64,000 bases of DNA from Laetmonice hystrix (lineage: Eukaryota): NCBI GenBank assembly GCA_965235115.1, contig OZ249439.1:17670001-17734000 (forward strand), given 5' to 3'. This document shows positions 56,001-62,000 of this stretch, in pieces. Position numbers: made by a program. Position 1 is the stretch's first letter. Each line of letters opens with the position of its first letter.

Positions 56001-59000
56001 TCAGGCCGATGCGCTGTAATAACCCGCTGTATCTATACCCTGTTTCAGGCCGATGCGCTGTAATAACCCGCTGTATCTGCACCCTGTTTCAGGCCGATGC
56101 GCTGTAATGACCCGCTGTATCTTACCCTTAGACTGACTGATTTAACGTTTGAGCCTCTGAAAAACCTTAATCACTCAACAAGTAATATTGAAACAGTTTT
56201 TAATAAAATCAAGAAGTCCGCACTAAAACTTTATAAAGATTTAATCATTGGTGTATGTTATCGTCCACCTTCGGGTGACAGGAAGGAATTTACTATTAAG
56301 ACTATCGAAATCCTAGACTCTATTAATCATGATCGTAATTATATTTATTTAATGGGTGATTTTAATATTAACCTATTTGAAATACATAATTCTGCAGACT
56401 CACTAAATTTTTACAACTCAATCCAGTCCTACCTGATGTTTCCGCAATTTAATCGGCCAACGCGAGTGACTTCGTTTACTGAAACACTTATAGACAATGT
56501 TTTTACAAACAACAATACAAATAAGCATTATAATTTCATTGTTACATCGGATATCTCTGATCATTTTCCGTTAATTACGTCAATACAAATGACTCGGCCC
56601 CAGGATCAGACAAATATGGGGTACTATCGATCATTTTCTCCAAGGAATATGCAATTATTTAAAGATGCTGTTACTACAGAAAAACTACTGCACATTACTG
56701 ATTCTATTTGCGCTCAGGTCGCCTATAGTAAATTACATAGTATATTACATGAAGCATATACTAAAGTTTTCTCTCTAAAACCAAAGAAGAAAATTTATTT
56801 AAATAGACACCCTTGGCTTACCAACGACCTTAAACAAAAAATAAAATGTAAAAATAACCTTTACCAGAAATATAGAAGGCGCCGCACCTCCCAAAATAAA
56901 ACCATATTTGATAATTATAAAAGAATATTAAACAGGGAAAAACGGCATGCTAAGCGACAGTATTATATAAATCAACTGCACCATAATAGGGGTAATTTGC
57001 GAAAATACTGGGCCATTATCAATACTATCTTAGCTAAGGAGACTGCAGCATGTTTTCCTGATCACTTTGATACAGATATAGGTCAAATATCCGATATCGA
57101 TGAAATCACTACTCATTTTAATGACTATTTTGTAAATATTGGTCCAAAACTTGATAGTAAAATTCCAGCGGCTAATAAGCATTATATGGACTACATGAAC
57201 GGGGTCTATAACAATACATTTTTTCTTGAACCAGTCTGTAACCAGGAGATTACAAAAGCGTATGAGACAATTAAAAGTTCTGCTTCAGGGTGGGACTTGT
57301 TTAATAAAAAGGTTATCGATGTAGTACTCGATACAATTCTCCCTTCTATCTGCCATATTATTAACCTATCCTTTGCTACAGGGGTAGTTCCACATGAGCT
57401 TGAGGTAGCTAAAGTTATTCCTCTACATAAAGGAGAAAGCCCATATGCCTTTACTAACTACAGACCAATATCAGTTCTACCGATTCTATCAAAGATTTTG
57501 GAGAAGTTATTTCACAAAAGGCTGTACTCCTTCATGACTACGAATAACATACTTTATAACAAACAGTTTGGTTTTCGACCTAAACACTCAACTGAAGCAG
57601 CTCTAACCGTTTTAAGCAGTCATATTTCTAAGTCTTTTGAGAGAAAAGAAGCTGTATTAGGAGTATTTCTAGATTTTTCTAAAGCTTTCGACACTGTTAA
57701 TTTTGACATTCTTTTAGGTAAATGCGAACATTATGGAATTCGAGGGATGCCACTTTGCTGGATAACAAACTACCTTAAGGACAGATATCAGTATGTCTCA
57801 GTCTCAGGTACCAATTCATCAGACCTACCAATCTCCACCGGAGTACCCCAGGGCTCTATTCTAGGTCCACTTTTGTTCTTGATTTACATTAATGACCTTT
57901 CCGAAGTGTGTGATAAACTTCAGCCGGTGATGTACGCCGATGATGGCAATTTTTTCGTTGCGGGAAATAAGTTAGAAGATTTATTCAACTGGGCAAATGC
58001 TGACCTTGAACGTATAGGCGATTGGCTGATGGCCAACCGCCTCTCTCTAAACGTATCCAAATCGAATTATATGATATTTTCTCATCAACATCAAATTCAT
58101 ACTAATCGAGTCCTTCGTATTCAGAATCAGTCCTTGCAACGAACTAATACTACTAAATTTCTAGGTTATGTTCTCGATGAAAAGTTAAAATGGAATTGCC
58201 ATATAACATATATCTCAAAAAAGGTTTCTAAGAATATTGGTATGCTTTATAAATTAATGAGAGTTGCAGACCACACTACCTTAGTAGAGGCGTATTATTC
58301 TTTTATACATCCATACTTTAGTAATGGCCTATCTATCTGGGGTTGTGCATCGGAGGGTAACTTAAACAAACTATTTTTATTACAAAAGAAAGCAATTCGT
58401 ATTATTGACAATGCTAGGAAATATACCCATACTGGACCACTGTTTGTAAAATATAATATCCTCCCCCTGGAGAGCCTCTATAAATACTCGGTGATTATTC
58501 AAATGTTTAAAGTGTACAAAGCTCAGTTGCCAACAGTCGTTACAGAACTTTTTAAAATACAGGCCATGTTTAATGTGAGAGACACTAGATCTGTAAATAT
58601 ATTTGAAGTACCTTTTACCCATCTGTCTTATATTCAAAGGAACATTCTCATCAAAGGTCCTAACTTATTTAACCATTATTCTAAACATGTTGATACAAGC
58701 TGTTCCCTGTTTACCTTTAAAAGACAACTTAAAAAACCATTGATTCTCGAGCACTATACCTGAACATTTATGTACTGGCATTTATTATTATACTATCATA
58801 CCATATCATACTGTATCATGTTAAATAATAATAATGTAGGCTATGTAGGAAATGTGTGGAAGTCCTGTATTTGTCTTTGTATTTGTTGTGTCCTAATTAC
58901 CCTGTTACTGTATATATGTTGAATGTATAATCGTTTTACTATTGTCACACCATCCCTAACCTCTATCTTGTAACATTTTTTAAAATATGCCTTTATCCAA

Positions 59001-62000
59001 TGTATATATAGACCCCTGTGACTAAAACAAGCACTTATACTGCTTTATTGTTCAGGAATATGTGATCATTAATTTTCTATGTATAATACTGTGACAATAA
59101 AACTCAAACTCAAACTCAACCCTGTTTCAGGCCGATGCGCTGTAATGACCCGCTGTATCTGTACCCTGTTTCAGGCCGATGAGTCGGACGAAGAAGACCA
59201 GTGTGCGCTGAGTGACAAGTGGCGATTCCAACGTAGTAGTCGGCGCTGGTCACGACGGGACTTGGACGACCTGCTGGTGCCATCTGGCGACCAAACAACG
59301 CAACAAGCCGGCGATGGTGGCGACAAGATGGGAATCGGGTCGTGCAGCAGTCATGACAGCGTTCTCACCGACAACGAAGAGAGTTTGAGCCAACTTGACG
59401 ATAGTCCACTTCTCCGCTCCAAGTCGGTTCATGTCCAACGCCATCATGGTTACATGCCGGACTCGCCTTCCTCAGAGGAGGCTCACCAGTCCCCGGTCAG
59501 TCTGCACGCGCCCTATAGTGGCGGCAGTCAGAAGGGGGAGAGAAGGAGCGGGTCGCCAATGAGCCCCGGCCTGAGGCGCGCTGCCAGTGAAAGGTTCAGA
59601 GGTGCTAAAATCTTCTTGAAACGAATTGAAAGTTTCAAGTCTTCTAAAAAGTTAAAGAAAAGCAAGCACCAGACGCCTAGTACGAGTAGTACAGGGCCTG
59701 GTGTTAACAAGGTGGAGATCAGCGGGCCAGTAGTGGCCGACTCGACCAGTTTACAGGAACGTATGGAACGGTTGGGCTGTGTGGACATCAGTCCGTCAGA
59801 CGAAACCACTCCCCTCGTGGAGAATGTAACACTCCGCCAGAGATCAGTAGACTCGAGTCATTCACCACGTACCTCCTCTGACAGAACCCCGGACTCCTCC
59901 ACCGCCGGACTCTCTCCCTCCAGTAAACGAAATGGACGAATCTTCCTCGACTCGAGCAGCTCCTACCCGAGTGCCAGCTCCACCCTGAGTGAAGCTCAGT
60001 CCCAGTCAGAGGATCCCTTACTGATTCTTGACAATCATTTAACTCCTCCCCCGACAGTCTATCCAGGCGGCCATCGAAGGAACCACAGCAGTTCCGACAT
60101 TATGGACATTCAGGCTGGGGGTGGGGGTGACCAAAAACAGGGTTCTTTCCCCATGCTAGTTTCAAACGGCTACATCGAAATGGGAAATGGTAATCAAATA
60201 AATTATCGGACTGGAAGCTTTAATCTTGGTAGCGAGAGTGAGGACTATCGGGACAGTTTGGTACGGCGGAAGGCTGCCAGTAAGTCGGCACCCAGTGCTA
60301 GCCCAGAGAAAGTGGTCGAAGCTCCGACTCGGCGGCAGACACGTAAGGACGTCAGTACAGAGAACCGACTCAGTATCTACGACAACGTACCAGTGTCAGA
60401 CGTATCGGACCCCCAGCACGAGCTCGATATGATCCTTCATGACCTCTTCAAGAACATCAACGGACTGAGCCAGAGTTTGGGACAGTCGGTTCTAGGTGAG
60501 TCATATTTACCGGTACGGTTTGTTTGTTAGAAGTATCAACAATTTGTCTACTGTAACCGAAATCAGGTGCCACTGTGAGGTTTGATAATATCGATAGTAC
60601 TTTGAGAACTGCGTAGTTGATGTTTCTAGTGAGGGATCTGATTACTGTATACGTGATTACTTTCCTTCCTGGTCTCCAAAGTTATTACCTTTTTGCGGGG
60701 AATGACATGAACAGCTGCAGGAAAAGTTTATCACATTATTATGACTGCTGACGCTAGTATTAACGCAGAAGTGGAACGCTATGATAAAGAAGTCTAAAGT
60801 CGCTTTCCCACTGGCAGATAGTTTGCAAGGTAAAGAATTTATTAACATCAAATATCAACTGATCAAATGGTACACATGAACTGGCCGTTGCCAGGTCGAC
60901 ACGTGCATTGAGTATTGTGCGTCATAATCAGGTAATCACACCTGAGTGGGGAAAGGGGCGGAGGCTGAGCGTGGGGAAACCCATTGGCCGTGAGAGTGAG
61001 GTCTCCTGTCCGCCGGTACAGCCTTCACTTGATGGTCTCAGAGCCAGCCGCCACGGGCTGACAGGTAACCGAGGCAGTTGGCAGATAGTAGTACGCCATC
61101 TACAGTTTAATGAGACTGTCCCCGAGCCATAGACCGCCAAACGGTCCCAAAGTCTGGCTCATCAACGTGCAAGTCGCTGCTGTCCGAGGGTGAGAGGCTG
61201 AAGACGGCAGATGGCACCTGTTTCAGAGCGTATGTCACTTGCGTTATTCAGTCAACAGCGCAGGCAAGATGTCCTACGTAGTACGTGTATATCCTTGCTT
61301 CGTAGGTGTTTCCTGCCATAGACTTGTCACAGAAATTCGACCATATTTGTTTGTTCAAAGTTTGAGGATTAGTTTATTCTGTTGTATTCACATATACATG
61401 ATTAGACATAGAGCTATCATAGTACTCGATACCATATAATATTTAGATTTTCCATCAAGACGAAGTACTAAGGCCAACTATTTAATTCACACAGCAAGTG
61501 TCTGCGCGTGGTCAGGTGGTGGAAGTTATGAGTCACCACCCAGAGCGCCCTCTGGCGGAATGTGTAAGAAACCCTGTGGCCGCACCTGTACAGTATACCT
61601 GTCCAGATGACTTCTTATAGTACATGTACATGTGGTCGGGTCTACTTTCCAGATGAATGACTCCTAACGTTCCGGAAACACGTATCGCCGTAGTTTCCTT
61701 ATCCGCTGTTCAATTATTGAAGCTGTTTCAGAAGGGGGTTCAGAAGAAGGGGGTTCAGAACCAGAAGGGTCTTAATTAATAGAAGGCCAGAGACTTGTCA
61801 CAGAAACCACCCACCACCACCAAGTCGGGTAGGCCTTTTGTTGCCAAACTTATACAAGTTAGGCAGCTTACCCCCAGCCCCACCTCCTAGGAGTGGGTAT
61901 GTGTTCAGACACTGATGGGGATGAGGTGTTTTGTTCACTGGGCGTTGCTGTAGTTGTTTCGCAATGTTTCATTGACCTGCTTGCCACTGTAATGGCCTTC

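What the first reader, a model, noticed from the sequence alone, without database searches (positions are those of the whole stretch)
56124..59123. Young LINE inserted inside the acceptor array, 56 bp upstream of the functional splice site
Seen: the 2990-bp sense-strand element interrupts unit 12, with a probable ACCCT TSD and an (AAACTC)n tail. Its ORF has no stops, so the insertion is recent and postdates the array. It moved 11 decoy acceptors 3 kb away, leaving one competitor. Inference: alleles with and without the LINE should splice differently, and an active master element probably exists.
Basis: partly seen in the sequence, partly recalled or inferred. Interest (0 to 1): 0.65.

Follow-up and report, generated by a model that had tools for sequence, protein, structure and literature searches.

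The report
Young truncated LINE in an intron repeat
A recently inserted, 5'-truncated and therefore dead copy of a LINE retrotransposon sits inside a 44-bp repeat that duplicates the splice acceptor of a RhoGAP gene; this is an ordinary intronic insertion, and no effect on splicing has been shown.

Summary
A 2,990-bp element (56129-59118, + strand, same sense as the host gene) interrupts unit 12 of a 13-unit, 44-bp array. It has a 4-5 bp target-site duplication (ACCCT), an AATAAA and an (AAACTC)3.3 tail. Its frame is open for 877 codons, with a clear reverse-transcriptase domain.

The copy is 5'-truncated. It lacks about 160-170 residues, including the N-terminal half of the endonuclease domain, so it cannot move by itself.

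The open frame limits its neutral divergence to about 3.4% or less with substitutions only, and about 1% or less if indels are assumed. No same-family copy was found; the best matches are 48% identical at full length and 64-76% as fragments. Divergence from a family consensus therefore stays unmeasured.

The host gene is a DLC1/STARD13-like RhoGAP. Homologues confirm the acceptor at 59174.

The array is a known kind of structure: a "mirage" minisatellite that duplicates an intron-exon boundary. Published cases report that such duplicated sites stay silent (PMC3087553, PMC3902484, PMC1557585).

The insertion left the functional acceptor's own unit intact. The claimed splicing difference is untested and not favoured. 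Overall this is an ordinary finding of low interest.

The parts
55123..55183 (+). Host-gene exon C (end of the SAM-domain region, 61 nt). It ends on a codon boundary, and the GTAAGT donor starts at 55184.
   Evidence: tblastn of named DLC/ARHGAP7 homologues: 8 of 8 hit here and 6 of 8. Translation and flanking AG/GT.
55615..56098 (+). Units 1-11 of the 44-bp minisatellite. Each carries a copy of the acceptor (TTTCAG) plus the first 7 nt of exon D.
   Evidence: Six of the 11 acceptor 23-mers are identical to the functional one and five differ at one base.
56099..56128 (+). Left part of unit 12, 30 nt with one G missing. Its last five bases, ACCCT (56124-56128), are the left target-site duplication.
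56129..59118 (+). 5'-truncated LINE (non-LTR retrotransposon) copy, 2,990 bp, in the same sense as the host gene.
56130..58763 (+). Element open reading frame: 877 codons plus a TGA stop, with no internal stop or frameshift relative to its relatives.
   Evidence: blastp to P0032 covers residues 4-872 with 4 gap positions.
56247..56564 (+). Remnant of the AP-endonuclease domain, C-terminal half only (profile positions 116-225 of 225).
   Evidence: E=0.0023, 18.1 bits, below the 24.5-bit cut-off; 76% identity to P0229 residues 161-281. P0229 carries the domain above the cut-off.
57453..58172 (+). Reverse-transcriptase domain. The YADD motif is visible in the translation.
   Evidence: (RVT_1 E=3.1e-36, 125.5 bits).
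58764..59099 (+). Element 3' untranslated region. AATAAA lies at 59096-59101.
   Evidence: No significant fold of the last 130 nt (z=-0.59).
59100..59119 (+). (AAACTC)x3.3 tail.
   Evidence: 100% matches.
59119..59123 (+). Right target-site duplication ACCCT. Its first A is shared with the tail.
59124..59136 (+). Rest of unit 12, with the single acceptor copy left between the element and the real site (AG at 59129-59130).
   Evidence: Five of its 23 bases differ from the functional site because the LINE tail replaces the upstream part.
59137..59180 (+). Unit 13, intact. It carries the functional acceptor (AG at 59173-59174) and the first 6 nt of exon D.
59175..60496 (+). Host-gene exon D, the large linker exon of a DLC1/STARD13-like RhoGAP. 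A GTGAGT donor starts at 60497.
   Evidence: 31 hits, all carrying RhoGAP and START domains; 16 of 16 homologues hit..

Best explanation
A LINE of the AP-endonuclease type inserted by target-primed reverse transcription into the intron before the large linker exon of a DLC1/STARD13-like RhoGAP gene. It landed in unit 12 of a 13-unit, 44-bp minisatellite.

That minisatellite arose by tandem duplication of the intron-exon boundary. Each unit carries a putative branch region, a pyrimidine tract, the AG and the first 7 nt of the exon. This is a 'mirage'-type array.

Reverse transcription stopped early, so the copy lacks the 5' end: about 160-170 codons, including the catalytic N-terminal half of the endonuclease. 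It was dead on arrival.

The insertion is recent, since the frame is still open, the tail is perfect and the target-site duplication is intact. A source element was therefore active not long ago.

The insertion is most likely a neutral or mildly harmful passenger. It fell into a redundant copy and left a complete unit in front of the real acceptor.

Shown here: the anatomy, the truncation, the age bound and the exon junction. Inferred: the insertion mechanism, recent activity of a source element, and the lack of a strong splicing effect.
For: - Array, break in register, target-site duplication and tail.
- Open frame of 877 codons against 53 and 110 stops in the other sense frames; chance about 3e-28.
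- RVT_1 E=3.1e-36 and the C-terminal half of Exo_endo_phos.
- 1,662 related proteins with E<=0.001 among 7,173 candidates. Of the six relatives I scanned, the four full-length ones (1,045-1,106 aa) have endonuclease followed by reverse transcriptase.
- The copy starts at residue 172 of P0032 (1,045 aa), 171 of P0033 (1,051 aa) and 161 of P0229.
- Age bound from loss of the frame.
- In the retained region the copy keeps 145 of 168 columns that are at least 90% conserved. Its intact nearest relatives keep 149 of 169 and 151 of 171. Eleven of its 23 differences are shared with close relatives.
- Host gene and junction. Four exons were mapped one by one. In one search, six named homologues run straight through the sequence that the window splits between 55183 and 59175.
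- The functional acceptor's 23-mer is unchanged.
- Boundary-duplicating minisatellites with silent extra sites are in print: PMC3087553 (passages), PMC3902484 (passage), PMC1557585 (abstract).
Against: - No second copy of the family was found. The family consensus, copy number and any intact master are unknown.
- The age bound rests on assumed neutral decay, and its tighter version on an assumed indel rate.
- Three changes sit at columns invariant in 54 of 54 relatives (K425E, P215S, Y260F). They could be copy-specific mutations, so the copy is not necessarily identical to its source.
- There are no RNA data. The element brings five AATAAA and two ATTAAA motifs on the sense strand, so premature polyadenylation or a change in splice choice cannot be excluded.
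- The clade of the element was not resolved.
Confidence: 0.85

Rival explanations
1. The insertion changes splicing of the host gene, so alleles with and without it differ. It could do so by separating 11 duplicated acceptors from the real one, by giving the upstream copies a head start in time, or by premature polyadenylation at the element's sense-strand signals.
For: - Twelve extra acceptors have the same or nearly the same 23-mer as the real site, and all lead to a stop after four codons.
- The element is in the sense orientation and carries five AATAAA and two ATTAAA motifs, one of them 79 nt before the exon.
- For mouse retrovirus-like elements (ERVs, not LINEs), mutation-causing intronic insertions are strongly biased to the gene's own direction and act through aberrant splicing or premature polyadenylation (PMC6466679, passages read).
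Against: - The real acceptor keeps a full 44-bp unit and an unchanged 23-mer.
- Published boundary-duplicating arrays do not give aberrant mRNAs (PMC3087553, PMC3902484). Identical pseudo-sites in the F7 array stay silent (PMC1557585, abstract).
- No GTRAGT donor occurs in the element.
- There are no transcript data of any kind.
Confidence: 0.2
2. Much of the array (units 1-11) expanded after the element inserted, so the insertion does not postdate the array as it is seen today.
For: - Minisatellites of this kind are unstable in length (PMC3087553, passage).
- Unit variants are interleaved: seven units of one type, four of a second (units 3, 4, 12, 13) and two of a third (units 10, 11). This shows turnover.
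- Units are 96% alike.
Against: - Unit 12 is split in register, and unit 11 lies directly to its left. At least three units therefore existed at the time of insertion.
- Nothing in the sequence dates the other units.
Confidence: 0.25
3. The element is old, and its frame is kept open by selection as a domesticated or exapted gene.
For: An 877-codon open frame.
Against: - The frame has no start of its own and lacks half of the endonuclease domain.
- It lies inside an intron.
- The tail is perfect and the target-site duplication intact.
Confidence: 0.03
4. The insertion is an assembly artefact, with a repeat-rich region wrongly joined to a LINE copy from elsewhere.
For: The window is full of minisatellites: 13 rows with score at least 80. 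One published mirage was mis-assembled in a draft genome (PMC3087553, legend of Additional file 4 as quoted in the main text).
Against: Both junctions fit one unit cut once, with 4-5 duplicated bases, and the tail sits at the expected end. A false join would not produce this.
Confidence: 0.03

Closest known systems
AP-endonuclease-type LINEs with short-repeat tails (CR1/L2/Jockey-like in the broad sense; this grouping is recalled, not tested)
   Same: - Endonuclease followed by reverse transcriptase in one long frame.
- A tail made of a short repeat rather than poly(A).
- A short target-site duplication.
- Frequent 5' truncation.
- The nearest atlas clusters are automatically named 'Endonuclease-reverse transcriptase'.
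   Different: - The nearest full-length proteins are only 46-48% identical and the nearest fragments 64-76%, so this is an undescribed family as far as these collections go.
- No tree with named references could be made.
- Some relatives carry an N-terminal PHD finger, but this copy lacks that region altogether.
- No significant 3' stem-loop was found.
'Mirage' minisatellites of amphioxus (Adh3, globin, troponin C and PGBD5 genes)
   Same: A tandem repeat whose unit spans an intron-exon boundary and so multiplies a splice signal. Published unit sizes are 10-160 bp, and the 44-bp unit here falls in that range. The authentic site is the copy that continues into the real exon.
   Different: - The window is not Branchiostoma. 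Exon D is 28-30% identical to Branchiostoma proteins and 33-36% to most mollusc, nemertean and brachiopod proteins.
- Splicing fidelity and length polymorphism, reported for the amphioxus cases, could not be tested here.
- The passages I read do not mention a transposon inside a mirage.
Human F7 intron 7 37-bp minisatellite spanning the exon 7 donor (PMC1557585, abstract read)
   Same: A minisatellite whose end unit spans an exon boundary, giving several splice sites identical to the authentic one. Only the site next to the exon is used.
   Different: That array duplicates a donor (5' site) and lies downstream of it. Here an acceptor (3' site) is duplicated upstream. The scanning rule shown for donors has not been shown for this acceptor.
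Solved non-LTR reverse transcriptases (LINE-1 ORF2 protein 8sxt, R2 proteins 9nl2 and 9dou)
   Same: The reverse-transcriptase core aligns, with E=1e-12 to 3e-11 over query residues 313-598.
   Different: The similarity is confined to the polymerase core. R2 uses a different endonuclease, and no close solved relative exists.

Membership tests
LINE / non-LTR retrotransposon of the AP-endonuclease type | Reverse-transcriptase domain of the non-LTR type with the catalytic YxDD motif | tested here: met
   RVT_1 E=3.1e-36, 125.5 bits against a 29.6-bit cut-off. YADD is visible in the translation. The best solved matches are the LINE-1 ORF2 protein and R2.
LINE / non-LTR retrotransposon of the AP-endonuclease type | AP-endonuclease (Exo_endo_phos) domain N-terminal to the reverse transcriptase | tested here: inconclusive
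   Only the C-terminal half is present. It scores E=0.0023 and 18.1 bits, below the 24.5-bit cut-off. That half is 76% identical to P0229, and it is collinear with P0032 and P0033, which carry the whole domain above the cut-off. The N-terminal half is missing because of 5' truncation.
LINE / non-LTR retrotransposon of the AP-endonuclease type | 3' tail (poly(A) or short repeat) next to the target, flanked by a target-site duplication, with no terminal repeats | tested here: met
   (AAACTC)x3.3 tail at 100%. ACCCT on both sides, with the empty site predicted by the array's own period. Self-comparison of the element found only itself.
LINE / non-LTR retrotransposon of the AP-endonuclease type | Multiple copies in the genome | not testable with these tools
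   There is no other copy in the 64-kb window. No eukaryotic genome collection was open. The protein collections hold nothing closer than 76%.
CR1/L2/Jockey-like clade | Placement of the reverse-transcriptase domain inside the clade on a tree with named reference elements | not testable with these tools
   All close hits are unnamed, and I may not type reference sequences from memory. The only hints are the automatic cluster name and the repeat tail.
'Mirage' minisatellite (tandem duplication of an intron-exon boundary) | Tandem array whose unit contains the splice signal and adjoining exon bases | tested here: met
   13 units of 44 bp. Each ends with TTTCAG followed by the 7 nt that also begin exon D. 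The exon boundary is fixed by homologues.
'Mirage' minisatellite (tandem duplication of an intron-exon boundary) | Authentic splicing undisturbed, and array length polymorphic | not testable with these tools
   No transcripts and no second haplotype were available.
DLC1/STARD13 (ARHGAP7) RhoGAP family (host gene) | SAM domain, long linker, RhoGAP domain and START domain in this order | tested here: inconclusive
   SAM-region exons and the linker exon are in the window and match named family members. All 31 hits carry PF00620 and PF01852. The RhoGAP and START exons lie beyond base 64000, and the linker exon itself has no Pfam family.

The most novel reading that the evidence does not exclude
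The element has split a boundary-duplicating minisatellite into 11 distant copies and one near copy of the acceptor. If the insertion is still polymorphic, the two alleles would be a natural experiment on how a 3' splice site is chosen among identical copies. The candidate rules are scanning from the exon, kinetic head start and competition. A measurable share of transcripts might then be lost to nonsense-mediated decay or to polyadenylation inside the element.
Probability: 0.12. Interest if true: 0.5.

Novelty: new member of a known kind. Interest (0 to 1): 0.22.

Why it matters
The finding mainly helps annotation.
- The 898-aa open frame is a transposon remnant, not a host exon.
- The true acceptor of the large RhoGAP exon is the last of 13 identical-looking sites.
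- The genome holds, or recently held, an active LINE family that is absent from the protein collections searched.

The one wider point is the array itself. Minisatellites that duplicate an intron-exon boundary have been reported from amphioxus genes and from human F7. Another case in what looks like a spiralian invertebrate, now split by a transposon, could serve as a test bed for 3' splice-site choice if the insertion proves polymorphic. Nothing here shows that it is.

Tried and rejected
- Second copy in the window: blastn and tblastn of the element against the window gave only the self-hit, plus short hits to array units read through at the start of the frame.
- Same-family proteins: the 'near' and 'shorter' searches gave nothing above 76% identity. 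Divergence from a consensus could therefore not be measured.
- Decay test on conserved columns: the first run was distorted because the aligner placed the first three residues far upstream and counted 16 columns of the missing N-terminus as losses. After correction the copy keeps 145 of 168 columns, against 149 of 169 and 151 of 171 for its nearest intact relatives. This is compatible with little decay but has little power. Only the 54 hits of at least 900 aa among P0032-P0091 were used.
- 3' stem-loop: the last 130 nt fold no better than shuffles (z=-0.59; 49 of 200 shuffles fold as well).
- Rfam: no family reached its gathering score in the whole window.
- Clade assignment: the atlas gave only generic names and PDB gave only the polymerase core.
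- Other long frames: 30 frames of at least 130 aa were listed. Ten outside the arrays were scanned against Pfam and all 10 had no family.
- Papers: the original mirage paper (PMC117041) is not held. One search was rejected for the format of its terms.
Empty-site haplotypes and other genomic copies therefore stayed unchecked.
- The exons were searched and translated one at a time.
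Full report
**What is there.** The window has no N. Nothing in it was taken for human: the host gene's best matches are invertebrate proteins at 35-36% identity.

Tandem Repeats Finder reports a 44-bp array at 55614-56128, with 11.7 copies, 96% matches and no indels. It also reports a perfect (AAACTC)x3.3 run at 59100-59119. Printed in register, units 1-11 fill 55615-56098. Unit 12 starts at 56099 and stops after ACCCT at 56124-56128. The same unit resumes in phase after base 59119, and an intact unit 13 (59137-59180) follows.

Because the array is periodic, it predicts its own uninterrupted sequence. Against that prediction, 4-5 bases (ACCCT, whose A is shared with the tail) are present twice. 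That is a target-site duplication. Unit 12 also lacks one G five bases left of the junction; I cannot say when that was lost.

**The element.**
- The stop-to-stop frame 56067-58763 (+) is 898 aa, of which 877 codons belong to the element.
- The other two sense frames have 53 and 110 stops. A random sequence of this composition (35% G+C) would stay open with P of about 3e-28.
- Pfam finds RVT_1 at E=3.1e-36. It finds only profile positions 116-225 of 225 of the AP-endonuclease family, at E=0.0023, below the curated cut-off.
- The protein search found 1,662 relatives with E<=0.001 among 7,173 candidates. The best 120 were listed, none with an informative name.
- The nearest full-length proteins are P0032 (1,045 aa, 48% identity) and P0033 (1,051 aa, 46%).
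- The 'shorter' search found 274 proteins at E<=1e-20 among 2,510 candidates. It added fragments at 70% (P0152) and 76% (P0229) identity, and P0034 is 64% identical.
- The copy aligns from residue 172 of P0032, 171 of P0033 and 161 of P0229 onwards, with few gaps.
- It therefore lacks about 160-170 residues, including the N-terminal half of the endonuclease domain that those relatives carry whole. It is a 5'-truncated copy that cannot move by itself.
- Solved structures match only the polymerase core: LINE-1 ORF2 protein at 1e-12 and R2 at 2e-11.
- The atlas gives generic 'Endonuclease-reverse transcriptase' clusters.
- I could not assign a clade, because no named reference sequences were at hand.
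- The last 130 nt do not fold better than shuffles. Rfam finds nothing in the window.

**Age.** About 3.3% of possible substitutions in the frame would create a stop. The chance that the frame is still open falls to 0.05 at 3.4% divergence with substitutions alone. It falls to 0.05 at about 1% if one frameshifting indel is assumed per roughly ten substitutions; that ratio is my assumption.

The perfect tail and the intact duplication agree with a young age. A second test compared columns that are at least 90% conserved among 54 relatives of at least 900 aa. After correcting an alignment artefact of the first run, the copy keeps 145 of 168 such columns. Its nearest intact relatives keep 149 of 169 and 151 of 171. 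Eleven of its 23 differences are shared with close relatives, so they belong to the lineage and not to decay. Three changes sit at columns invariant in all 54 and may be private mutations. The test fits little decay but is weak.

The window has no second copy. The protein collections have nothing closer than 76%. No eukaryotic genome collection was open.

**The host gene and the splice site.** The large frame after the array (searched on its own, 59175-60530) matches 31 proteins, all with RhoGAP and START domains. Those with informative names are called rho GTPase-activating protein 7, DLC or StAR-related lipid transfer protein 13. The best is 35% identical over 96% of the query.

Sixteen named homologues were run against the window with tblastn. 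They place four + strand exons:
- about 40871-40957, hit by 15 of 16;
- 50916-51011, hit by 16 of 16;
- 55123-55183, hit by 14 of 16;
- 59175 onwards, hit by 16 of 16.

Six homologues run without a break through the motif that the window splits between the end of exon C (...PPRKS, with a GTAAGT donor at 55184) and the start of exon D (ADESDEED...). Exon C ends on a codon boundary, so the acceptor at 59173-59174 gives the conserved reading. Each of the 12 other copies of the acceptor would add bases that read A-D-A-L-stop. Exon D ends at 60496 before GTGAGT.

**The array is a known kind of thing.** Each unit ends with the acceptor and the first 7 nt of exon D, so the array arose by tandem duplication of the intron-exon boundary.

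Such minisatellites were named 'mirages' in amphioxus, in the Adh3, globin, troponin C and PGBD5 genes, with units of 10-160 bp. The authors report that they do not disturb normal splicing or produce aberrant mRNAs, and that they vary in length (PMC3087553 and PMC3902484, passages read; the original paper PMC117041 is not held).

The human F7 gene has a 37-bp minisatellite spanning a donor site. Its identical pseudo-sites are functional in principle but stay silent, because only the site next to the exon is selected (PMC1557585, abstract read).

The window is not from Branchiostoma: exon D is 28-30% identical to Branchiostoma proteins. The window as a whole is rich in minisatellites, with 13 rows of score at least 80, so an array that happens to span a boundary is not surprising in this genome.

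**What the insertion probably does.** Before the insertion the intron was 996 nt, of which 565 nt (57%) were array (coordinates). A hit inside the array is what chance would give.

The element left a full 44-bp unit in front of the real acceptor, and that site's 20 intronic and 3 exonic bases are unchanged. Six of the 11 upstream copies have the same 23-mer and five differ by one base. The copy at 59130 differs at five bases, because the LINE tail now lies before it.

The most likely outcome is an insertion tolerated in a redundant copy. The direction of any effect is also open. Moving the 11 copies 3 kb upstream might weaken them as competitors. It might equally help them, because they are transcribed well before the real site (my inference).

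The element also brings five AATAAA and two ATTAAA motifs on the sense strand, and no GTRAGT donor. In mice, intronic retrovirus-like insertions that cause mutations lie mostly in the gene's own direction and act through aberrant splicing or premature polyadenylation (PMC6466679, passages read). That is a general caution for this case, not evidence about it.

**Verdict.** The copy is truncated and dead. No master copy was found. A splicing consequence is neither shown nor favoured by published analogues. It is a new member of a known kind and of low interest.

**Not checked.** I made no search for an empty site or for other genomic copies.

Noticed in passing
window 18032-19938: A very large minisatellite of 33-bp units in 59.5 copies (89% matches), in a stretch with 56% G+C and strong negative GC skew (-0.37). 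Since 33 is a multiple of 3, it produces several overlapping open frames of 135-445 aa on the + strand. These are probably artefacts of the repeat.
   Followed up: no
window 45153-47090: A second large minisatellite of 60-bp units in 32.3 copies at 97% matches, with positive GC skew. It gives open frames of up to 662 aa on both strands, which again look like repeat artefacts.
   Followed up: no
window 6903-7267, 10647-10762, 14775-15023, 19987-20346, 26077-26635, 38427-38584, 42088-42149: Many further young minisatellites with periods of 26-178 bp and 94-100% matches. The genome seems unusually prone to tandem duplication of short segments. That makes an array spanning a splice site less remarkable.
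   Followed up: partly
window 10955-11009: A (CAG)x18.3 microsatellite at 96% matches. I did not examine whether it is coding.
   Followed up: no
window 40871-40957, 50916-51011: Two short SAM-domain exons of the same RhoGAP gene lie about 10 kb and 4 kb apart from the next exon. Hence at least 19 kb of the window is this one gene. The long N-terminal parts of the 1,700-2,000-aa homologues found no match in the window.
   Followed up: partly
window 56099-56128: Unit 12 lacks one G (TATCT-TACCCT instead of TATCTGTACCCT) five bases left of the LINE junction. It may be an ordinary unit variant or a small deletion made during integration.
   Followed up: no
proteins P0098 and P0106 (relatives of the element, not in the window): Some full-length relatives carry a PHD finger at the N-terminus, before the endonuclease domain. 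P0106 scores 28.8 bits, above the cut-off, and P0098 scores 19.6 bits, below it. This might help to place the clade.
   Followed up: no
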